This document shows, piece after piece, positions 7,596 to 63,638 of a DNA stretch of 64,000 nt. Numbering within the stretch: the first letter of the stretch is position 1; each line of letters starts with the position of its first letter. Where the stretch lies: assembly GCF_006345805.1 (NCBI RefSeq), contig NC_043003.1, forward strand, positions 12,958,001 to 13,022,000. The letters run 5' to 3'. A model generated the notes under the pieces. The model was not told the origin of the DNA, did no database searches, and saw only the letters and a list, made by a program, of their open reading frames with translations. A program made the translations under genes and the position numbers. Source of the stretch: Octopus sinensis. Lineage: Eukaryota.

Positions 7596-9811
7596 TTAAA
7601 TAGGAAAAGAACATGTTAGATAGTGTAATCCTACACAGCATTGTTAGTCCCCCTAACATCGCTTGACAACCGATGCTGGTGTGTTTACGTCCCCATAACT
7701 TAGCAATTCAGCAAAAGAGAGTGATAGAATAAGTACTAAGCTTACAAAGAATAAGTCCTGGGGTCGATTTGCTCAACTAAAGGCGGTGCTCCAGCATGGT
7801 CGCAGTCAAATGACTGAGACAAGTAATAAAAAAGATATATATTTATATAATACATTGTGTTCAACATCATATGCCCAAAGATAATGGCCTGATCAAACAT
7901 CCGATTTTATGACCTTATACATAGACAGTATGCATGATCCAGACTCCGTATGAATCATTTTACATCTGCTTTAACATCCTCTTCATTTGGACTTCGCAAG
8001 TACATTCATGGATTTACACTTTTTATAAATCTATATTTATGAATTTTTATGTGTTTATAAATTTTCATGTGTACGAATTTTAATATATATTTATAAATTT
8101 CCATGTATATGTATGTATTTATAAATTCTTAGAATTTTTTTTTTATATATCATATTGATGAATTTCGTTAATATGGATTCAATTAATATATACATCAGAC
8201 TTTGAATTTGTTTTCTCCTCTCCTTAATTTTATATATACATATATCCATCCGAATGTGGCCATTGCCAGTGCTGCCTCGACTGGAATCCGTGCCGGTGGC
8301 ACGTAAAAAGCACCAGCGGATCATGGCCATTGACAGCCTCGCCTGGCACCTGTGCCAGTGGAATGTAAAAAGCACCCACTACACTCACGGAGTGGTTGGC
8401 ATTAGGAAGGGCACCCAGCTGTAGAAACACTGCCAGAACCGTCCAACCATGCTAGCATGGAAAACGAACATTAAACGATGATGATGATATTTATATATAT
8501 ATATATATATATTGAGTTGTCAGATAAATTTATTAGTTTTTTTTCCATGCATTTTATGATTCTTTCCAATGTCATTTATTTGAATACATCAAATATTTTT
8601 GTTGCATGCACAAAGGCACACACACACACATATACAACAAGCTTCATTCAGTTTCCATCAAACAAATCCACTCACAAAGCTTTGTTCAGCCCACAGCTAT
8701 AGTAGAAGACTTTCGCTTGAGGCGCCATGCACTGGGACTGAACCTGGAACCACATGATCGGGAAACAAACTTCTTACCACACAGCCACATCAGCATATAT
8801 ACGTGTGTGTGTGTGTGTGTGTGTGTTTTTGTAGTGTGTGCCCATGTATGTGTGTGTAGACAAACAAATAGACAGACAGATATTTGTTTGTTTTGGCTTT
8901 GAACTCTCTAATAACGAAGTTAGGTCCACTTCCACTTTTACATCTGACATTAGACTTTTAATTATGTTTCTGATGTTTGGGACATTTCCAGAAAACTGGA
9001 AACAATCTTAGCCACGGATGTTTGTAAAGGTTACAACCAGAACAGGAAACCTTGAGGGAGATGGTCATTAAAAGTGACTTGTGAAACAAATCTTTGGGCG
9101 GAGTCATTAATTTATATCAGAAGTAATATTAATATTATTAATGAACAGATATTTCATGACAATGTGAAGGAGCATGGCTCAGTGGTTAGAGTTGTAGAAG
9201 AAGTATGATCACTCTTTACCTTTAGGTATCCGCATTTTGCCTCTTTACCTTTAGGTACCCATTTTGGTTCATCACGTGATGGTCAAGTCCATTTAGCTGA
9301 AAGCTAAATGAAGCAGACTGTCTCCCTCTTAACATGATAGATTAGCTAAGTGTCCCAACATAAGTTATTTAAGGGAGGTTTTACAACTCCCTAATTCCTG
9401 AGGGAGGGGTGTTTGTTATGAGCAAGTTTTGATCTTCGACTTGAAAGCAGTTTATTCCACTTTGCTGCTTCAGCAAGGAGAGATTTGTAACCAGAATCCT
9501 TGATGCTATGCATTGCATTTTATCCAACATTTATCTTCAACTTCAAGAAACATTTAGAAACCATGTGTTTTTAACAGAGTTATGCCAATTGATCTATTTC
9601 ACTTTAGCGTCGTAAATAAATGTTACAGAACTGTTCTATATTTTAGAGATGAGAAATTCTGTACATTATTTACATTGGATGGATATGTGTTCTCATCTTT
9701 GTTGCTACCACAACATTTCGGCTGATTTACTCTCCAGCCTTCATCAAATGTCTTGGTGGAATTTTGAACCCGACTCTGGATTCTCATTTCTAAGGTATTT
9801 TTTGCTGATGC

Positions 9812-9851
<40 letters not shown>

Positions 9852-10461
9852 TAGTTTTATTTTTATATCGTGCTTTCACTTCACTACTGAGCACAGCTGT
9901 GTGTGCCTTGGGTATGTGCTGTGGTTTGCTGTGATGCTCTTATGGTTACTGTATTGAAAGTGTTTTGCATAGGATGTGTGCAGTGCCCAGTAGTCCAATT
10001 TTCTGTTTGTTATAGATATTTGTAAGTCCTGGTGTTTTTGTTATGTATTTGTCTGAATATTTTTTTGTCATACCTAATGCGCCTACTATGATATTATTAT
10101 TATTATTATTATTATTATTTGATTTATTCAAGACATTGAACTCAGAATTTTGGCGTTAGTAGCCCGTGCTATATGCCCATGGCATATAGCATATGCTTTA
10201 AGAGTGCGTTGTCATAACAACAAACAAGATGAAGATGCATATCCATCTAATGTAAATAATGTAAATAAATGTTGCAGTGCAATCAACTTAAACTTGTATT
10301 TGTATTTTCTTAATGATATTCATCCTGGACCACATGGTTCTGGGTTCAGTCCCATTTTATGACATCTTGGGCAAGTGTCTTCTACTATAGCCTTGGGCCA
10401 ACCAAAGCCTTGTGAGTGGAAACTGAAAGAAGCCCATCGTATATATGTATGTATGTATGAT

Positions 10462-21389: not shown

Positions 21390-22337
21390 CTCATGTGTGA
21401 ATATATAAATGCATGTTTGTATCACCTTGTCTTGGGATCATGTACTAATTGTAAGCAAACCTCCCTGTCATACAAGCAGTGAGTATCACAGTGCAGGTTG
21501 AAGACAGGGAGAGCATCCAGCTTTAGTAAAAACCTTGCCACAACAAGTTTAAAAACGGTGATGATGATGATGTCAATGACGATGACAGTGATGGCAATGT
21601 TTCACAATTTCAGGAATTATCATAAGATTTTCTGAAGGCTGATGGATGGAGAGAACGGTAATCATGACTGCATACACACAAGCACGCATGCCTCTGTGTG
21701 TGGGTGTGTGTGTGTGTGTGGACGGAAGCTTTTACTAAATATATACCAAAGAAGTTCATCAGATTCTTGTTCATAGTCTATATATGTTTAAAAAAAAAAG
21801 CCACCCACTAATGGACTTACAGCACAATATCATTACCCACTTTAATTTCAAGAGGCTTTAGGAAAAAGATGTGACTATCAGATTACTCAGAGGAAGTCAA
21901 GAGTTATTAATCGCAGATACTCTTGGGTTTTAAATAGACTTTCTTAAAATAGAAAGTAAAAAAATAGATTATTCATGATTTAGCAACAATAGGTGCACGT
22001 GTAGTAGTATGGTTAAGAAGCTTGCTGTGGAATCACAGGGTTTTGGGTTCAGTCCCACCGCACGGCACCCAGAGTGAATGTCTTCTATAGGCCCTGACCA
22101 ATCAATGCTGTGTCAATGAATATTGTGGAGGGGAAAATATGTGGAAGTCTATCACATATGTGTGTGTTTGTGTGTGTGTATGTATGTGTGTGTGTGTGGT
22201 GTGTGTGTGTGTGTGTGTGCTTTTGCATGGAAGCCCATCATGTGTGTATGTGTGTGTGTACATATATATATACACACTCACACCAGATATACATATATAT
22301 ATATACACATATATATATACACACACACACACACACG

Positions 22338-22399
<62 letters not shown>

Positions 22400-22472
22400 C
22401 ACTGGAGTAAACACATAAATGTGAAACAAGGTGGAAAAAAGAGTACTCAAATACCAGAGGTAGAGTAATATG

Positions 22473-24642: not shown

Positions 24643-26532
24643 AGGGGCACATGAATTTCAGGAATTAAATCTTAAATGAATCTCCAAGGGTATGGACCCT
24701 GGTTGAGAATGGCAGCAGTGGCATTTAACATCCACTTTTTATTTTGGTATGGGTCAGATGGTTTAACAGGAGGTGGCTAGGCAGACAACTGCACCAGGCT
24801 TCAGTGTCTGTTGTACCACGTTTTTTATGACTGGATGCCATTCCTAACACCAACAACCCAGCAGAGTGAACTGAGTGCTTTTTACTTGGCACCAGCACAT
24901 GTAGAATTAGTTTTGGCGAGGTTTTTACAGTTGGATGCCCTTCCAAATGCCAACCACTTTACAGTGTGGACTGGGTGATTTTTATGTAACACCAGCACTG
25001 GCAGGGTCTCCAAGTAACTTGCAAGACAAAGATCCTTCGGAAGTGGAAGAGGTCATCTTGAGCCAGATGATGAAAGGTTAGAGTGACAGAGAGACAGAAA
25101 CAGCTGTCTTGCTGCATGCCCTAATTTATCCAGATACATCTGCTTCCTCCAGCACTCTCTGGACTCCTCCTTCAGATTGAACCTGAAACCATGTGGAAGT
25201 AAAGCAAGCTTCTTAACCACACAGCCATACCTGCACTCTATTCATTTCTTTTCCAGCAAGCCAAGTGAGACCATAACCCGTGGCCTATGCCAGGGTTGTA
25301 ACCAGCCCACTTATGCGTACCTTTCCTTCATTGGACACTAAACTCTGCTTGTGAAAACCTGTTGAGGCAAGTGAAATCAAAATCGAAATCAAATTCGATG
25401 ACTGGCATCCGTGCTAGTGGACGCTAAGAGCACCAACCAAGCATGATCGTTGCCAGAGCAGCAGACTGGCTTCCGTGCTGGTGGCATGTAAAAAGCACCA
25501 TTCGAGTAGAATCGTTACCAGTGTCGCCTTACTGGCACTTGTGCTGGTGGCACGTGAAAAAACATTCAAGCTGGACTGGCTCCTATGCAGGTGACATGTA
25601 AAAAACACCATTTGAGCATGGCCATTGCCAGTACTGCCTTACTGGCCCTCATGCCGGTGGAGTGGTTTGCATTAGGAAGGGCATCCAGCTTTGCCGGATC
25701 AGATTGGAGCCTGATGCAGCCATCTGGTTCGCCAGCCCTCAGTCAAATCGTCAAACCTATGCTAGCCTGGAAAGCAGATGTTAAATGATGATGATGATGA
25801 TGATGATTCTACCTTTTGACAGTACAAAATTAGGGTGCTGTCCTTTTATTAGTGATGCTTAATCCAAGCAGCTTTAATTCTGAGGAGGACTTAAAAATAG
25901 CTTCATCATCATCATCATCGTCGTTTAACGTCCGTTCTCCATGCTAGCATGGGTTGGACGGTTCGACCGGGGTTCTGGGAAGCCAGAAGGCTGCACCAGG
26001 CTCCAGTCTAATTTGGCAATGTTTCTACAGCTGGATGCCCTTCCTAACGCCAACCATCTAAATTAATTCAATTGGGATATTTTCAAGGACTTTTTCAAGG
26101 ACTTGACATCTATTTATGAACAACACCAAAATAGGAAAAACAGGAGGAAGAGAAAACAAAAAGAAAAAAAAAAAAAAACACATTACACCCTGTTTTGGAA
26201 ACTAGTTCTTCAATGAGTAAAGAAACATAGAACTAAATCAGGAAGCTAATTAATAATTTATTTACTCGTTAATCAGAAGTAAATATTGCTAGTAAAATTG
26301 ACCTGGATTTCTTTGGTTAGCCGCCGTGCTGGCTGCACTCTAGTGGTGGAGTTAAAAATGTCCGGTAACTAGAATATGTGGTGATTAGTAATGGTGGGAG
26401 TGAGAGAAGGTGAATAATAATATAGAAATAAGCTACATCAAAGATGAGTTCAAGACATCTGTCTTTCCCTATGTGTGTGTGTGAGTGTGTGTGTGTGTGT
26501 GTATGTATATATGAATATACACACATACATTT

Positions 26533-26571
<39 letters not shown>

Positions 26572-28084
26572 GCTGTGTGAGTATATATGTATATGTGTGT
26601 ATATATATATATACTCTTTACTCTTTACTTGTTTCAGTCATTTGACTGCGGCCATGCTGGAGCACCACCTTTAATTGAGCAACTCGACCCCGGGACTTAT
26701 TCTTTGTAAACCCAGTACTTATTCTATCGGTATATTTTTGCCAAACCGCTAAGTGACAGGGACATAAACACACCAGCATCGGTTGTCAAGCAATGCTAGG
26801 GGGACAAACACAGACACACAAACACACACACATACATATATATACATATATACGACGGGCTTCTTTCAGTTTCCGCCTGCCAAATCCACTCACAAGGCTT
26901 TGGTCGGCCCAAGGCTATAGCAGAAGACACTTGCCTAAGGTTCCACGCAGTGGGACTGAACCCGGAACCATGTGGTTGGTAAACAAGCTACTTACCACAC
27001 AGCCACTCCTGCGCCTATATATATATATGTAAATATATATATTTGCGACATCACTGGTGCCAAGCTGTATTGGCCTTTGCCTTTCCCTTAGATAACATCA
27101 GTGGCTCAAAACACTTTACCAAAATGTTATTACAGTTTGGGACTACCAAACACATCAGATTTACCTATTTCTCTGTCGATTTAAAAAAAGAAATGAACAA
27201 CCTTAATCAATGTTTGACTCTTATTGGGAATGTCTCATCAGAGCTGTATACATCACCTGACCAAACCCAGAAAAACAAGCAGTCAATCTTTTTATATACA
27301 CAACTAATCTTATAGCTCCAAAGAACTAGACACACATACACACACAATGAGCTTCTTTCATTTCCTGTGTACCAACTTCAATCACAAGGTACTGGTCAGC
27401 TTGGGGCTATAGTAGAAGATGCCATGCAGTCGGAGTGAACCTAAAACCCAGATGGTTGGGAAGTGAACTTCTTAACCATAGGTGCAGGAGTGGGTGTGTG
27501 GCAAGAAGCTTGCTTCCCAACCACACGGTTCCGGGTTCAGTCCCACTGCATGGCACCTTAGACAAGTGTTTTCTACTATAGCCTTGGGCTGACCAAAGCC
27601 ATGTGAGTGGATTTGATAGATGGAAACTGAAAGAAGCCCATTGTATATATATATATATATTTGTGTATGTGTGTGCATATATATATATATATATATAATA
27701 TTTGTGTGCGTATGTGTGTGCGTATGTATATATATATATATTTATGTGTCTGTGCTTGTCACCCCACCATTGCACTTGACAACTGATGTTGGTGTGTTTA
27801 CATCCCTGTAACTTAGGGGTTCGGCGCAAGAAACCAATAAAATAAGTACTAGGCTTACAAAGAATAAGTTCTGGGGGTCATTTTGTTTGACTAAAGGCAG
27901 TGCTCCAGCATGGCCGCAGTCAAATGACTAAAACAAGAAAAAAGAAAAGAAAAACATGACCAAGCCAGTACCTATAACAAACAAACAAGATACATAAGTC
28001 ATCACTCAAAAAATCTTGTCAATAATAACTTCCATACGCAAAAAAAGAATAACACACCTTTCAAGTAAAAGAAAGTGGACATAC

Positions 28085-38455: not shown

Positions 38456-38973
38456 TCTATATATATAAAACTGTAGTTGTGTGAGTGTCTGTCTCCTACG
38501 ATTTAGATTCCTAACTCCTCCCACATTTTGCGGTGCAGTTTAACCAAATTCGGGTATCTTATAGTCGTGATTAATATCGAGCCTGTCTGGCTATTAGCAC
38601 GCGTCTACGATGAGTCTACGATTTTAAAAATAATTTAACATCATTTTTTTATTCCATTTTAATGCATAATTTTTCGTGTGTCGATGGCGGCGGAGTTGGC
38701 GTCCATGCTCAAACACCTGCACCTGTGTTTGCTTCTCCCTCTTCTTCCCTCCCTCGTGAAGCTGTGGGGAAGGGAGTGTAAGGAAATCAATGTCGTAAAG
38801 CGTTGTCAAGGAGACCAGCGTTCTTTTAGAACAACGACTTCATGGCTTGAAGACACCAAAACAGAAATGGCTAAGAAAGCCCGAATTGGCATCTATAAAG
38901 GAAGTAACTCTCTAAAAATGCTTATATAGTTATTTCCCTTACAAACCCGAGCAACGCCGGGCGATACTGCTAG
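38456..38973 (+). mobile_element. Non-autonomous Helitron, copy 2
   Basis: Similar 5' end and identical 3' end (hairpin plus CTAG|T) to 14899-15397, with a different middle. Confidence 0.8.
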
Positions 38974-39038
38974 TATATATATATATGAAAAAACAATTCA
39001 AGATAGAAAATGCTAAAATAATTTTATAAAGAACATTT

Positions 39039-39075
39039 CAGTACCGGTTTCGGTCATTTGAGACCTTTTCAACTG
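39039..39075 (-). ncRNA. Minimal hammerhead motif with U3-A8 core variant
   Basis: Minus strand CAG-TTGAAAA-GGTC(TCAAAT)GACC-GAAA-CCGG-TA-CTG. Confidence 0.55.
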
Positions 39076-40907
39076 TAACGATTAAAAAATTAAAAGAAAA
39101 GTTTTTTAAAAGAATATTTGTATAGTGTTCAAATACAAGTGGCATTTTCCTTGTTTCTGCCTGTCTCTGTCTCTCTTGTTTACTCTTGTGGGTTCAAGGT
39201 CCATGTGAATTCTTGGTAGGGTATATATATATAGAGAGAGAGAGAGAGGTGGGGGTGTATATGTATGTGTGTATCTTCCCGTTTGTTCCCTACTGCTCAA
39301 CTACCAGTGTTTGTTTGTTTATGTCTTCGTAACTTAGTGGTTCCACCAAGATTCTCATTGAATAAATATCGGGCTTAAAACCGAAATAAGTATTGGGATC
39401 GACTAAACCCTTCAAGGCAGTGATTCAGCATGGCCAGAGTCTAATGACTGGAACAAATAAAAGATTTTTAAAAATGGGATAAAAAGTACTATTTGCAGTA
39501 GTTTACAAAGGCAGCCAATTCTAGGCTGATGAAATTGTCTATCATCATCAACATCATCATCATCATCATCATCATTTAACGTCTATTGTCCATGTTGACC
39601 TGGGTTAGACAGTTTGACCAGGGCTAGTTAGATGAGGAGCTGCACCAGATTCCAGTCTGATTTGGCATGGTTTCTACAGTTGGATGCCCTTCCTAATGCC
39701 AACCACTCCAAAAGAGTAATGGGTGTTTTTACGTTTCACTGGCACGGGTTACGTGACACCAGCATTGACCACTTGGCCTCCATGAGGCCCAATGCTTGAA
39801 TGGTGCATTTTATGTACCACTGCACAGGTGCCAGTTATGTGATACCAGTATCGACCACATTGCCTCCATGAGGCCCAATGCTTGAATGGTGCATTTTATG
39901 TGCCACTGCACGGGTGCCAGTTACGTGACACTGCCACCAGCCACATTGCCTCCATGAGGCCCAATGCTCATATGGTGCCCTGTACATACCAGCTAATGAA
40001 AACTGAGGAAACTATAAATGCAGGAAAATAAAAATCTAATGTCCCAAGACGAAAGGAGATGAATGACTAACTGTAAGACATCCAGGGTTTCATTCTTTCG
40101 CTCGTCAGATATTGCCAAATATCTTTGTTATGAAGATCGTTAAACGCTATTGCTTGTTCTATGTGACTGTCATATATTTTAATAACTAGATAGCTTACAG
40201 TAATATATTCTTCATCTTCTTCTTCTCCTCCTCCCCCTCCTTCTTCTTCTTCTTCACAATTCTGCCATATCACCACTTTAATCGACCTACACCCATCCCC
40301 CAGTGCTTGACAGGTACTTAATTTATCAACCCTGAAAGTATGAAAGGCAAAGTCGACCTCAGTGGAATTTGAACTCAGAATGTTAAGACGGACAAAATTC
40401 TGCGAATGATTCTGCCAACTCACCACCTTAACACAAATATTCTTTTCTACTCTAGACACAAGGCCCGAAATTTTGTGGGAGGGGGCCAGTCGATTAAATC
40501 AACCCCAGTAAGTAACTGGTACTTAATTTATTGATCTTGAAAGAATGAAAGGCAAAGTCGATCTCGGTGGAATTTGAACTCTGAACCTAAAGACAGACAG
40601 AATACTGCTAAGCATTTCACCCGGTATGCTAACCTTTTTTATTTCTTTATTGCCCACAAGGGCCTAAACATAGAGGAGACAAACAAGGACAGACTACGTT
40701 CTGCATTCAAATTCCGCTGAGGTCGACTTTGCCTTTCATCCTTTCGGGGTCGATAAATTAAGTACCAGTTACGCACTGGGGTCGATGTAATCAACTTTAT
40801 CCCTTTGTCTGTCCTTGTTTGTCCCTCTATGTTTAGCCCCTTGTGGGCAATAAAGAATTAAGAAACTGAAAGAAGCCCATTGTATATACTACCTGACGAT
40901 ATAAAAG

Positions 40908-51854: not shown

Positions 51855-52527
51855 GAAATGAGGTACTCAGAAGATCGGATGGTTTATATTTACAGATATT
51901 TATTTGTGTATTACATTTTTTATATATATCATATCACTTAGATCATTGGCGCTTTCTCCCATTCTAGTGGGGTTTTCAAATCAAACTAAGTTCCTGTGTG
52001 AGATTTGACCATTTTATAGAGTTTTGTAGTGGTGGGGACGAATATAAGATAGTACAAGAGGGTGATGGATGAGGAGAAAGTGAGAAAGAGAACATGTGTG
52101 TGCGTGTGTGTGTGTGTGTGTGTTTTTGTATCTGGGATGAGTGCTAAAGAGAAAGAGGGGAAGGGAGAGGGAAGAAGAAGAAAAGAATTTTTTTGGTCTG
52201 CTGGACAGAATATTGACTCCAAGGACAAAAAGAAAGAATTTCAGTTTTGACCACTTCACAGTGTCACTGAGTGTGTGGTGGCAGGGAGGCAGGCCATAAA
52301 TTATATTTCCTTTTATCATTGTGAGAGAGTGTGTGTGTGTGTTTAATGGTCAAATGCTTTTTTGGGTTTAAGAATTCTTTCCACTTTTTATGATAGTTTT
52401 GTGGAGGTGTGTCTGTGTGTGTGTCCGTGTGTGTGTGTGTGTGTGTGCGTGTGTGTGTGTCAGTGAGTTTGGAGAAGGGAAGAGAGAAAAAAGGGGGAAG
52501 GGGAAAAAATTATGTTGATATTTTTAC

Positions 52528-55091: not shown

Positions 55092-56087
55092 TAGGGTGGA
55101 GTGTTGTTTCATGGTTTTCGATTTCAAGATGGAGCGTAAGTTGTGAATGGACATCAAAACAATTGGTGTAAAATCTTAAAACTCTGCAACAATATTTTCG
55201 GTCTCCTCAAACACCTTGGGAAATGGAAAAAGTGGAAAAAAAAAAAAAACGGCTTCTACTTATTTATTAGCTATAAAATACAGTTTTCATTGCATCTTCT
55301 TCAGATATCTTTTAAATGACTATGATGAAATTACTCTGGGCATGTTTTTCTTTTTTTCTGTGACTTCATCTTCTGCTTCCACCGTATTTACATCTACATG
55401 AAAGATTTTCTAAATTCGCTAAAAAAAAATATTTACAATCATCATCATCATCATCATCGTTTAACGTCCGTTTTCCATGCTAGCATGGATTGGATGGTTC
55501 GACCGGGGTCTAGAAGGCCAGGAGGCTGCACCAGGCTCCAGGCTGATCTGGCAGTGTTTCTACAGCTGGATGCCCTTCCTAACACCAACCACTCCAAGAG
55601 TGTAGTGGGTGCTTTTTACGTGCCACCAGCACAGGGGCCAGAGGAGGCTGGCAAACAGCATCGATCGGTTAGTACTTTTACATGTCACCAACACGGATGC
55701 CAGTCAGGCGGGGCTGGCATCTGCCACGTTCGGACGGTGCTTTTAACATGTCACCGGCATGAGTATCTTAACTACAATTTCCATTTGATTTTCATTTTGA
55801 TGTTGGTGTTAATGTACTTGCATATTTTGAGGTGTTTATGGAGGCAGGAAAAATCATGTTTAAGTCATATTTTAAAGTAATTTCCCCCATCATTTAAAAA
55901 ATACCTGAAGACAATGCAATAAAGACAAAGCTATTAAATAAGTAGAGATGTTTTTTTTCCACTTTTTCCATTCTTCAATGCATTTTGGAGACAGAAGATA
56001 TTGTTGCAGACTTTTTGATGTCCATTCAGAACTTTTCTGCACTACCCCATCACAAAATCAAAAATTGTGGAAAAATGCTCCACCCTA
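55092..56087. mobile_element. Long-TIR MITE interrupted by a (CAT)n-tailed SINE
   Basis: TAGGGTGGAG...CTCCACCCTA termini with extended imperfect inverted arms (GAATGGACATCAAAA / TTTGATGTCCATTC). Confidence 0.55.
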
Positions 56088-56112
56088 AGATATATATATA
56101 TATGTGTGCATG

Positions 56113-56712
56113 TATACACACACACACACACACACATATATATATGTGCATATATAGATATACATATCGATATACATATACATACTTATATGTGTGTGTA
56201 TGTATATACGTATATGATCATGAGGTTGTGAGGTTTGATTCCTGCACCAGGCTGCATGTAGTGTTCTTGAGTAAGACACTTCACTTCACATTGCTCCAAT
56301 TCATTCAGCTGTATAAATGAGTTGCAACATCCCTGGTGTCAAGCTGTACTGGCCTTTGCCTTTCCCTTGGACAACATCAGAGAGGGCAGGCTGGTATGCA
56401 TGAGTGACTGCTGGTCTTCCATAAACAACCTTGCCCAGACTTGTGCCTCAGATGGGAACTTTCGAGGTGCAATCCCATGGTCATTATTAAAGCATGAGAG
56501 AAGCAGGGACAGAGCAGATTCTTGTTGTAGAGGGGCTTCGTGGCTAATCACATTTAGAAGAGAGGGTGAGTATGATCAGTAGGGGTTTCAAAGGGATAAA
56601 TACTGGTAATGAGGCGCCCAGGAGACCCTTCAAGGTATGAGGTGAATATAAGTGAGTAGGGACAAAGGAACTAGCAATGTGGGTGGTAGGGAACAAACAC
56701 AGACACAAAGAT

Positions 56713-63393: not shown

Positions 63394-63594
63394 TATATAT
63401 ATTGTGTCTTGGGAGAGTCATTTTCTTTCTATGCCTTATGATTTAACACACTCACCAGTAAAATTTCCACTTATTTCTTATTTTTATTTTCCTTAATTTT
63501 CATTGCGTCTTGCAACCTTTTCAATAGTCTTGAAGATGATGATCAAAATAAGGATCATCAAAATAAAGAATCTTTCAAACCAAATCCCAAAACG

Positions 63595-63638
<44 letters not shown>

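What the first reader, a model, noticed from the sequence alone, without database searches (positions are those of the whole stretch)
39039..39075. Hammerhead variants with compensatory U3-A8 core (UUGAAAA) in unrelated repeats
Seen: the minus strand reads CAG-UUGAAAA-GGUC(UCAAAU)GACC-GAAA-CCGG-UA-CUG, with perfect stem II and palindromic stem III ACCGGU. Two other sequence-unrelated, (TA)n-flanked repeats show UUGAAAA-hairpin-GAAA on the minus strand, both degenerate near the cleavage site: ~51945-51982 (CCCA/TGGG stem, GCGC stem III) and ~63491-63527 (GTTGC/GCAAT stem). Known: C3-G8 is a Watson-Crick tertiary pair in the core, so U3-A8 is the compensatory swap. Inference: several lineages carry variant ribozymes that CUGANGA-only searches would miss.
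Basis: partly seen in the sequence, partly recalled or inferred. Interest (0 to 1): 0.75.

Follow-up and report, generated by a model that had tools for sequence, protein, structure and literature searches.

The report
Penelope-element hammerhead with U3-A8 core
The motif is the small hammerhead-ribozyme motif that Penelope-like jumping genes carry in their tails, here in a truncated, probably dead copy, with a swapped but still paired core (U3-A8) that was already published in 2011 and 2014. It is predicted to cut RNA only when two copies pair, which nobody has tested for this sequence.

Summary
Window 39034-39080 (minus strand) reads as a complete type I hammerhead: helix I, UUGAAAA, a 4-bp helix II, GAAA, palindromic ACCGGU, and UA before the predicted cut. 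A strict descriptor finds it once in the window, against 3 hits in 600 dinucleotide shuffles. It is not a private mutation, since 30 of 34 family copies carry UUGAAAA.

The repeat is the last 250 bp of a Penelope-like element (PLE). Intact copies have a 784-codon frame with RT and GIY-YIG domains and the same motif about 700 nt downstream.

The other two loci are decayed copies of unrelated PLE-type repeats. Their majority forms restore A15.1-U16.1 and a palindromic helix III.

Genome-wide, the U3-A8 pattern occurs 9926 times against 146 for a reversed-pattern control. The canonical core in the same frame occurs 216 times against 259. One lineage of about 360-nt tandem repeats holds C-G, C.A and U-A versions with identical flanks.

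Perreault 2011 reported natural U3-A8 covariation, and Cervera and de la Pena 2014 reported U3-A8 minimal hammerheads in PLEs. This scan has also met the same kind in other genomes. Catalysis is untested here. Verdict: a new member of a known kind, of low to moderate interest.

The parts
38974..39223 (-). Solitary 5'-truncated copy (about 250 bp) of the 3' tail of a Penelope-like element
   Evidence: blastn of an intact copy (L158) against the window gives L158:5575-5835 = window 39223-38974 at 81% identity, and no other tail copy in the window. Family: 849 first-look candidates, 44 matches.
39034..39080 (-). Whole type I hammerhead motif with U3-A8 core
   Evidence: Sequence read. It is the only descriptor hit in the window. 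Rfam HH9 scores 22.2 bits, E 0.01, in a 1.1-kb scan.
39073..39080 (-). Helix I, 5' strand CGUUACAG
   Evidence: Pairs with 39041-39034 (C-G, G.U, U-A, U-A, A.A mismatch, C-G, A-U, G-C). Predicted in the minimum-free-energy fold.
39066..39072 (-). Core strand U3 U4 G5 A6 A7 A8 A9 (UUGAAAA)
   Evidence: Present in 30 of 34 family copies.
39052..39065 (-). Helix II GGUC/GACC (G10.1-C11.1) with loop UCAAAU
   Evidence: folds. Copies with GACU (G.U after CpG decay) and subfamilies with AGUC/GACU exist.
39043..39051 (-). G12 A13 A14, then A15.1-CCGG-U16.1. The palindrome ACCGGU (39048-39043) would form helix III only between two copies.
   Evidence: The homodimer minimum free energy is -28.3 kcal/mol against 2 x -10.4, with an intermolecular ACCGGU helix.
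39041..39042 (-). A17 (39042) and C1.1 (39041). The predicted cleavage site lies between them.
   Evidence: Position inferred from the hammerhead numbering. Not tested.
39034..39041 (-). Helix I, 3' strand CUGAAAUG
39222..39233 (.). (TA)n at the 5' boundary of the truncated copy
   Evidence: The family's 3' ends run into (TA)n.
38974..38986 (.). (TA)n at the 3' end of the copy
   Evidence: the intact copy's tail also ends in CATATATATA....
51937..51990 (-). Decayed copy of a second, unrelated PLE-tail hammerhead motif (U3-A8). U16.1 is mutated to C in this copy.
   Evidence: Family of 1564 first-look candidates. GAAAGCGCUA in 26 of 32 copies, GCGCCA only here. Longer copies have a CX4CxxC and GIY-YIG-like frame upstream.
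63491..63527 (-). Decayed copy of a third repeat with a U3-A8 hammerhead-like motif (bulged G, helix II GUUGC/GCAAY, AAUU palindrome, 3-bp helix I)
   Evidence: Family of 1315 first-look candidates. Majority form in 22 of 34 copies. This is the weakest fit of the three.

Best explanation
Window 39034-39080 (minus strand) is a type I hammerhead motif of the Penelope-like-element kind, with U3-A8 in place of C3-G8, sitting in a solitary 250-bp 5'-truncated copy of such an element's 3' tail. In full elements it is predicted to pair with a second copy through its palindromic ACCGGU helix III and would then cut the element's RNA after U-A (between 39042 and 39041). This stub is likely inert.

Shown: the sequence anatomy, its excess over chance, its place in the tail of an RT plus GIY-YIG element, the U3-A8 core as the norm of its family, and compensatory changes in all helices and at the 3-8 pair between families.

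Inferred: dimer formation, self-cleavage, and its role in trimming tandem or pseudo-LTR transcripts to unit length. These rest on what is published for PLE hammerheads.

The swap from C-G to U-A likely arose stepwise. In one lineage a C.A intermediate fits G8-to-A decay of the C7-G8 CpG followed by C3-to-U.
For: Anatomy: U4 G5 A6 A9, G10.1-C11.1, G12 A13 A14, A15.1-U16.1 and H17 = A are all present.

Chance: 1 descriptor hit in the window against 0.005 per shuffle. Genome-wide, 9926 hits against 146 for the control.

Rfam: the best match of the region is Hammerhead_HH9.

Folding: the minimum-free-energy fold forms helices I and II. The dimer gains 7.5 kcal/mol through ACCGGU.

Family: UUGAAAA in 30 of 34 copies.

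PLE context:
- The protein piece has 12704 first-look candidates, and 150 of 150 scored matches have E <= 1e-86. Eight of those 150 lie in open frames of 784-789 codons.
- The same U3-A8 motif lies 741 nt (L158) and 694 nt (L160) after the frame, and upstream in L159.
- Head-to-head pairs and 5' truncation occur as described for PLEs (Craig 2021 passages).

Covariation on 18 natural variants from 3 lineages: 96% of cells paired against 67.8% in shuffles (0 of 500). The covariation score is 0.783 against 0.265. Eleven of 14 pairs change on both sides. The 3-8 pair is U-A in 12, C-G in 5 and other in 1.

Homologous series with identical flanks: CUGACGA, CUGACAA and UUGACAA.

Core type is lineage-specific. 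In the GAAACAUGUGUH class the canonical core wins, 164 to 56.

Literature:
- Perreault 2011 reports U3-A8 covariation in nature and says such exchanges were already shown active in vitro.
- Cervera and de la Pena 2014 report U3-A8 minimal hammerheads in Schistosoma PLEs, about 1300 hits.
- A 2019 review describes the palindromic short stem III and cleavage as dimers (PMC6765202 passages).
Against: - No cleavage assay and no RNA-end data exist for this sequence.
- The Rfam score (22.2 bits) is far below the HH9 gathering score of 52, and the gathering scan of the window found nothing.
- The monomer fold is not unusually stable: z = -1.43, and 19 of 200 shuffles fold as well.
- Helix I is short and holds an A.A mismatch.
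- Published PLE minimal hammerheads cleave poorly in vitro, even as dimers.
- A C3.A8 subfamily (CUGACAA-GAGG...) also amplified in tandem arrays. PLE clades without hammerheads also proliferate (Craig 2021). So amplification may not need an active ribozyme.
- The covariation set was picked with a descriptor that demands pairing, and it comes from only three lineages. Independent events are therefore few.
- In intact copy L159 the strict pattern found no downstream plus-strand motif.
- The window copy is solitary and truncated.
Confidence: 0.8

Rival explanations
1. The motif descends from a hammerhead but the U3-A8 families no longer cut. It rides along in the PLE tail as a relic, or is kept for another reason such as RNA dimerisation through the palindrome or recognition of the 3' tail by the element's reverse transcriptase.
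For: - PLE minimal hammerheads show very low activity in vitro.
- Hammerhead-less PLE clades thrive, and the authors suggest hammerheads may merely parasitise PLEs (Craig 2021 passages).
- A C3.A8 subfamily amplified in tandem arrays.
- There is no RNA evidence here.
Against: - Two lineages switched C-G to U-A rather than drifting to unpaired combinations.
- Compensatory changes occur in helices I, II and III while U4 G5 A6 A9 G12 A13 A14 stay invariant across unrelated tails.
- Exchanged 3-8 pairs were reported active in vitro (Perreault 2011 passage).
- A pure dimerisation signal would not need the core bases.
Confidence: 0.17
2. Chance resemblance: an AT-rich repeat happens to contain UUGAAAA, a hairpin and GAAA.
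For: The motif is short. The Rfam score is under threshold. By the shuffle rate, a 2.7-Gb genome would give roughly 200 descriptor hits by chance.
Against: - 9926 genomic matches against 146 for the control.
- A constant position in the tail of an RT plus GIY-YIG element.
- Homologous canonical-core relatives with the same flanks.
- Covariation.
Confidence: 0.02

Closest known systems
Minimal hammerheads (min-HHRs) of metazoan Penelope-like elements, U3-A8 subtype (Cervera and de la Pena 2014, PMC4209133; section 5 and passages read)
   Same: - Type I topology with a tiny helix III of palindromic sequence.
- Location in the PLE pseudo-LTR or tail.
- Mostly single motifs in truncated copies, and pairs on opposite strands 100-700 bp apart.
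- U3-A8 instead of C3-G8.
- G10.1-C11.1.
- In families 2 and 3 and family C, an unpaired base between positions 9 and 10.1.
   Different: - Another host genome.
- Helix II is 4 bp here against 7-8 bp in Schistosoma.
- Family 1 has no bulged base.
- A 4-nt palindromic loop 3 is present, where the strict min-HHR has none.
- Within the GAAAC-SS-GUH class, U3-A8 outnumbers the canonical core 9926 to 216 here. In Schistosoma the reported figures are about 1300 against about 2000.
Natural U3-A8 covariation in hammerheads (Perreault et al. 2011, PMC3088659; passages read)
   Same: The same compensatory exchange of the C3-G8 tertiary Watson-Crick pair.
   Different: That paper reports it for 'several' examples in a survey of all domains of life. 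It is not tied there to PLEs or to dimer-type helix III.
Small PLE-associated hammerheads that cleave as dimers (Lunse, Weinberg and Breaker, RNA Biol 2017). The paper is not held. I saw the title in a reference list and a summary in the review PMC6765202. Other details are recalled.
   Same: A one-base-pair stem III with a palindromic loop that would make a 6-bp helix between two copies (here ACCGGU).
   Different: I could not check whether that paper lists U3-A8 cores or this host.
Non-LTR retrozymes: about 150-450-bp tandem repeats with type I hammerheads (Cervera and de la Pena 2020, PMC7229834; passages read)
   Same: Families A and B here stand in tandem at 358-365-nt spacing with one hammerhead per unit.
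   Different: Most of these units carry U3-A8 or C.A cores. Circular RNAs were not looked for here. The window's own copy is a PLE tail, not such an array.
Rfam Hammerhead_HH9 (RF02275) and Hammerhead_1 (RF00163)
   Same: HH9 is the best Rfam match of the site (22.2 bits). The genome also holds canonical type I hammerheads over the RF00163 cut-off, 7 of 74 scored.
   Different: The score is far under the gathering threshold. Even canonical-core relatives (L130) gave no Rfam hammerhead hit at E <= 1.

Membership tests
Hammerhead ribozyme | Conserved core U4 G5 A6 N7 A9 ... G12 A13 A14 | tested here: met
   These columns are invariant in 18 variants from 3 lineages.
Hammerhead ribozyme | C3 and G8 (tertiary Watson-Crick pair) | tested here: not met
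   U3 and A8 are present instead. The pair is kept by covariation: U-A 12, C-G 5, other 1. This exchange is accepted in print as a natural variant.
Hammerhead ribozyme | Three helices around the core, A15.1-U16.1, H17 not G | tested here: met
   Helices I and II form in the minimum-free-energy fold. A15.1-U16.1 and A17 are present. Helix III exists only as a palindrome that needs a second copy.
Hammerhead ribozyme | Site-specific self-cleavage | not testable with these tools
   No assay was possible. The sequencing runs were available only as contigs.
Hammerhead ribozyme | Match to the curated Rfam models at gathering score | tested here: not met
   No gathering-level hit in the window. HH9 scores 22.2 bits against 52. 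The models also miss canonical relatives of this type, so the test is weak.
PLE-type (dimer) minimal hammerhead | Lies in the pseudo-LTR or 3' tail of an element that encodes RT and GIY-YIG | tested here: met
   GIY-YIG scores 21.1 bits, just under Pfam's cut-off of 22.6. RVT_1 is over its cut-off.
PLE-type (dimer) minimal hammerhead | Very short helix III with palindromic 15.2-16.2 / loop 3 | tested here: met
   ACCGGU in family 1, AGCGCU in family 2, ACGCGU in family A.
PLE-type (dimer) minimal hammerhead | Unpaired base between positions 9 and 10.1 | tested here: not met
   Absent in family 1, where helix II starts at once. Present in families 2, 3 and C.
PLE-type (dimer) minimal hammerhead | Copies mostly 5'-truncated, in tandem or head-to-head pairs, with microsatellite targets | tested here: met
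   (TA)n at the ends.
PLE-type (dimer) minimal hammerhead | Cleavage only as a dimer | not testable with these tools
   Only a thermodynamic prediction of a dimer is available.

The most novel reading that the evidence does not exclude
In this genome U3-A8 is not a rare variant but the prevailing working hammerhead core. About ten thousand copies are spread over many Penelope-like and about 360-nt tandem (retrozyme-like) families, including an apparently intact young element. The core was reached at least twice from C3-G8, once through a C3.A8 intermediate made by CpG decay at N7-G8. That would make the genome a natural mutational series for testing in vivo what the 3-8 pair does.
Probability: 0.35. 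Interest if true: 0.45.

Novelty: new member of a known kind. Interest (0 to 1): 0.25.

Why it matters
The finding confirms that searches limited to CUGANGA miss most hammerhead-type motifs in some animal genomes. Here they would miss about 9900 of about 10100 in one helix-III class. It also gives a clean natural C-G / C.A / U-A series in otherwise identical repeat units.

The principle is already published: natural U3-A8 covariation, and U3-A8 minimal hammerheads in Penelope-like elements. The value is therefore in annotation and in choosing test sequences, not in a new kind of RNA.

Tried and rejected
- Rfam at gathering score on the whole window: 0 hits.
- Rfam at E <= 10 on the whole window and at E <= 1 on seven loci. 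Both were swamped by microsatellite look-alikes of miRNA families. There was no hammerhead row even for canonical-core L130, so Rfam cannot judge this type.
- Pfam on four short frame pieces of decayed copies: 0 families. This was solved later with an intact copy.
- Sequencing runs: no RNA holder is listed. All 20 runs are kept as contigs and 'RNA?' is a guess. Laying 4 runs gave short contigs only, no starts, ends or joints, and some contigs bridge the predicted site. This is no evidence on expression or cleavage either way.
- Idea that family 3 copies start at a ribozyme-made end: rejected. They begin about 7 nt upstream of U3, not after H17.
- Idea that U-A is a genome-wide decay product of C-G: rejected. 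In the GAAACAUGUGUH class the canonical core dominates.
- Przybilski and Hammann 2007 (PMC1986816) and Lunse 2017 (PMC5785218) are not held. What I say of them is second-hand or recalled.
- Supplementary figures of Cervera 2014 were not opened. They may list further U3-A8 hosts.

Full report
WHAT IS THERE. On the minus strand the window reads CGUUACAG-UUGAAAA-GGUC(UCAAAU)GACC-GAAA-CCGG-U-A|CUGAAAUG, from 39080 down to 39034. In hammerhead numbering:
- U4 G5 A6 A9, G10.1-C11.1, G12 A13 A14, A15.1-U16.1 and H17 = A are all in place.
- C3 and G8 are replaced by U and A.
- 'Helix III' is A15.1-U16.1 closing CCGG. That gives the palindrome ACCGGU, which cannot fold on itself but can pair with a second copy.

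The two further loci are as described, and both are damaged near the cleavage site.

CHANCE. The strict descriptor required the following:
- a [CU]UGAN[GA]A core, so all four 3/8 combinations were allowed;
- a helix II of at least 3 bp directly after the core, then GAAA;
- A + palindromic 2/4/6-nt loop + U + H;
- a helix I of at least 3 bp.

It hits the window once, at this site. Looser versions add nothing else. Six hundred dinucleotide-preserving shuffles of the window gave 3 hits in all, and none was as good as the real one.

Rfam's HH9 model is the best match of the 1.1-kb surroundings (22.2 bits, E 0.01). That is far under its gathering score, and the gathering scan of the window is empty.

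The monomer's minimum-free-energy fold forms helices I and II but is not unusually stable (z = -1.43). A homodimer is predicted at -28.3 kcal/mol against 2 x -10.4, with the ACCGGU strands paired between molecules.

WHAT THE REPEAT IS. The window lies in a genome of 2.7 Gb in 13,516 contigs.
- The 141-nt surroundings have 849 first-look candidates there, with 44 matches at 81-100% identity, often as head-to-head pairs.
- In 34 distinct copies the core is UUGAAAA in 30. The others are one each of CUGAAAA, UUGGAAA, UUUAAAA and UUGAAAG. So U3-A8 is the family's norm.
- Copies have ragged 5' ends and a common 3' end in (TA)n.
- Longer copies carry decayed frames with an RT motif and a GIY-YIG-like motif upstream.
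- A 181-aa piece of that frame has 12,704 first-look candidates, and all 150 scored matches have E <= 1e-86. Eight of the 150 lie in open frames of 784-789 codons.
- Three such copies were fetched. Each has a 784-codon frame.
[quoted passage not shown] A CX4CxxC motif precedes the GIY-YIG.
- This is the architecture of canonical endonuclease-bearing Penelope-like elements. The linker is of the kind discussed for microsatellite targeting (Craig 2021, PMC8557442, passages).
- The same U3-A8 motif lies 741 and 694 nt after the frame in L158 and L160, and about 1.3 kb upstream of it in L159. In L159 the strict pattern found no downstream plus-strand copy.
- The window copy (38974-39223) aligns to the last roughly 260 nt of that tail at 81% identity. 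It is the only such copy in the window.

The window copy is therefore a solitary, 5'-truncated stub inserted in a (TA)n run.

THE OTHER TWO LOCI. Both are members of large families, with 1564 and 1315 first-look candidates.

Family 2:
- GAAAGCGCUA occurs in 26 of 32 copies. The window's GCGCCA is a 1-of-32 private change.
- The majority form therefore restores A15.1-U16.1, the palindrome AGCGCU, and UA.
- It has an unpaired C after A9, a C-G at 10.1-11.1, an extra A before G12, and a split helix I.
- Its longer copies carry a CX4CxxC and GIY-YIG-like frame that is 40% identical to family 1's over 60 residues (E 2e-10). This is a different PLE lineage.

Family 3:
- The majority form CUA-UUGAAAA-G-GUUGC(AAGAC)GCAAY-GAAA-AUUUUAGG occurs in 22 of 34 copies.
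- It has the bulged base, G10.1-Y11.1, a weak AAUU palindrome and only 3 bp of helix I.
- It is the weakest fit, and I did not find a protein-coding parent for it.

The three tails share nothing beyond the core and TA runs.

GENOME CENSUS. Counts are forward plus reverse, against the same pattern read backwards as control.

| Pattern (core + N10-20 + helix III) | Matches | Control |
|---|---|---|
| UUGANAA ... GAAACSSGUH (U3-A8) | 9926 | 146 |
| CUGANGA ... GAAACSSGUH (C3-G8) | 216 | 259 |
| CUGANAA ... GAAACSSGUH (C3.A8) | 318 | 113 |
| UUGANGA ... GAAACSSGUH (U3.G8) | 212 | 183 |
| CUGANGA ... GAAACAUGUGUH (C3-G8) | 164 | 3 |
| UUGANAA ... GAAACAUGUGUH (U3-A8) | 56 | 10 |

- These are copies, not independent events.
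- The listed U-A rows include at least a dozen different helix II sequences, with N7 = A, C, G or U.
- The unpaired classes are mostly single-mutant copies of U-A families.
- In the second helix-III class the canonical core dominates. The core type is therefore a property of lineages, not a genome-wide decay product.
- The genome also holds canonical type I hammerheads over the RF00163 cut-off, 7 of 74 scored.

COVARIATION. Other U3-A8 hammerheads turned up unasked in the flanks of fetched loci and in the pattern loci:
- A: GCUACA-UUGACAA-GGGG(CAAUA)CCCC-GAAA-CGCG-UC|UGUAGC.
- A': the same with AGGG/CCCU.
- B: CAUGCG-UUGACAA-GAGG(CAAUAA)CCUC-GAAA-CCGG-UC|CGUAUG.
- C: UUUACUU-UUGACAA-U-CUUUUU(CUA)AAAAAG-U-GAAA-CCGG-UC|AAGUGAA.

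Lineage B stands in tandem at 358-365-nt spacing. It exists with identical flanks as CUGACGA (C-G), CUGACAA (C.A, also in tandem arrays) and UUGACAA or UUGAUAA (U-A). Family-1-like copies with a canonical CUGAAGA core also exist (L136, L137).

I aligned 18 natural variants from three lineages and counted pairs:
- 96% of cells pair, against 67.8% in shuffles (0 of 500 reach the observed value).
- The covariation score is 0.783 against 0.265.
- Slid controls pair at 28-45%.
- 11 of 14 pairs change on both sides.
- The 3-8 pair is U-A in 12, C-G in 5 and C.A in 1.

Two caveats apply. The set was picked with a descriptor that asks for pairing in helices I and II and for a palindrome. It also comes from three lineages only, so independent events are few. 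The 3-8 combination was not constrained by the descriptor.

HOW IT LIKELY WORKS. This part is inferred from the family, not shown here. PLE transcripts that run through a pseudo-LTR and the element, or through tandem units, carry two motifs. The palindromic helix III strands pair between them. Each core would then cleave after H17, giving unit-length RNA with 5'-OH and cyclic-phosphate ends that could be ligated (Cervera 2014 discussion; review PMC6765202).

U3-A8 keeps the Watson-Crick pair that C3-G8 forms in the active fold. Perreault 2011 states that such exchanges were already shown active in vitro.

The C.A form of lineage B fits a path in which G8 mutates to A through decay of the C7-G8 CpG, and C3 then changes to U. 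This path is an inference.

Several things weigh against a strict need for catalysis:
- PLE minimal hammerheads are very slow in vitro.
- Hammerhead-less PLE clades thrive.
- The C.A subfamily amplified.

COMPARISON AND NOVELTY.
- The full-text search for 'hammerhead' plus 'U3-A8' returns one paper, Cervera and de la Pena 2014. It reports this very covariation in Schistosoma PLE minimal hammerheads, about 1300 hits.
- Perreault 2011 reports the covariation in nature.
- Passage searches of Cervera and de la Pena 2020 and of a 2026 preprint on animal retrozymes found no mention of cephalopods or octopus, nor of core covariation.
- Notes of this scan show the same kind found in at least five other genomes and judged known. 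One of them pointed me to the 2011 paper, which I then read.

So this is a new member of a known kind. The points that may be new are the extreme dominance of U3-A8 in one helix-III class and the natural C-G / C.A / U-A series.

NOT OBTAINED. There are no RNA-level data. The runs are kept as contigs only and say nothing on ends.

Noticed in passing
window 38910-38972: Directly beside the PLE stub lies a short repeat (GCAGUAUCGCCCGGCGUUGCUCGGGUUUGUAAGGG... on the minus strand). Its summed contig word depth in the laid runs is 10-100 times that of its surroundings, so it looks like a very abundant SINE-like element.
   Followed up: no
L112-L114 (G000:C1:38322145-38322905), L130, L133, L134, L135: Units of about 358-365 nt stand in tandem and head-to-head, with one hammerhead per unit (retrozyme-like). 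Separate arrays carry C3-G8, C3.A8 or U3-A8 cores with otherwise identical flanks.
   Followed up: partly
L130:515-587: A near-perfect hairpin of about 35 bp, scored as miRNA look-alikes on both strands. It is probably the junction of two head-to-head repeat copies.
   Followed up: no
L158:5976-6027 (minus strand): A canonical-core hammerhead-like motif, CUGAUGA-A-GGCUGG(...)CAGCC-GAAA-CG-UU, lies just beyond the tail of an intact PLE copy, in a different repeat that also matches window 9656-10093.
   Followed up: no
window 63491-63600 and loci L072-L096: Most family 3 copies begin about 7 nt upstream of U3 and form head-to-head pairs joined there. No coding parent was found for this family.
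   Followed up: partly
genome-wide (one search list): A many-copy string CUGAUAA-UUGAUGUAAGG-GAAACCGGUC has core-like ends but no helix II. It is either a broken derivative or an unrelated repeat.
   Followed up: no
window, many sites (e.g. 26465-26630, 22160-22410, 56070-56220): (TA)n/(CA)n microsatellites give dozens of sub-threshold Rfam miRNA 'matches' (mir-297, mir-466, mir-3149). These are artefacts of low complexity.
   Followed up: no
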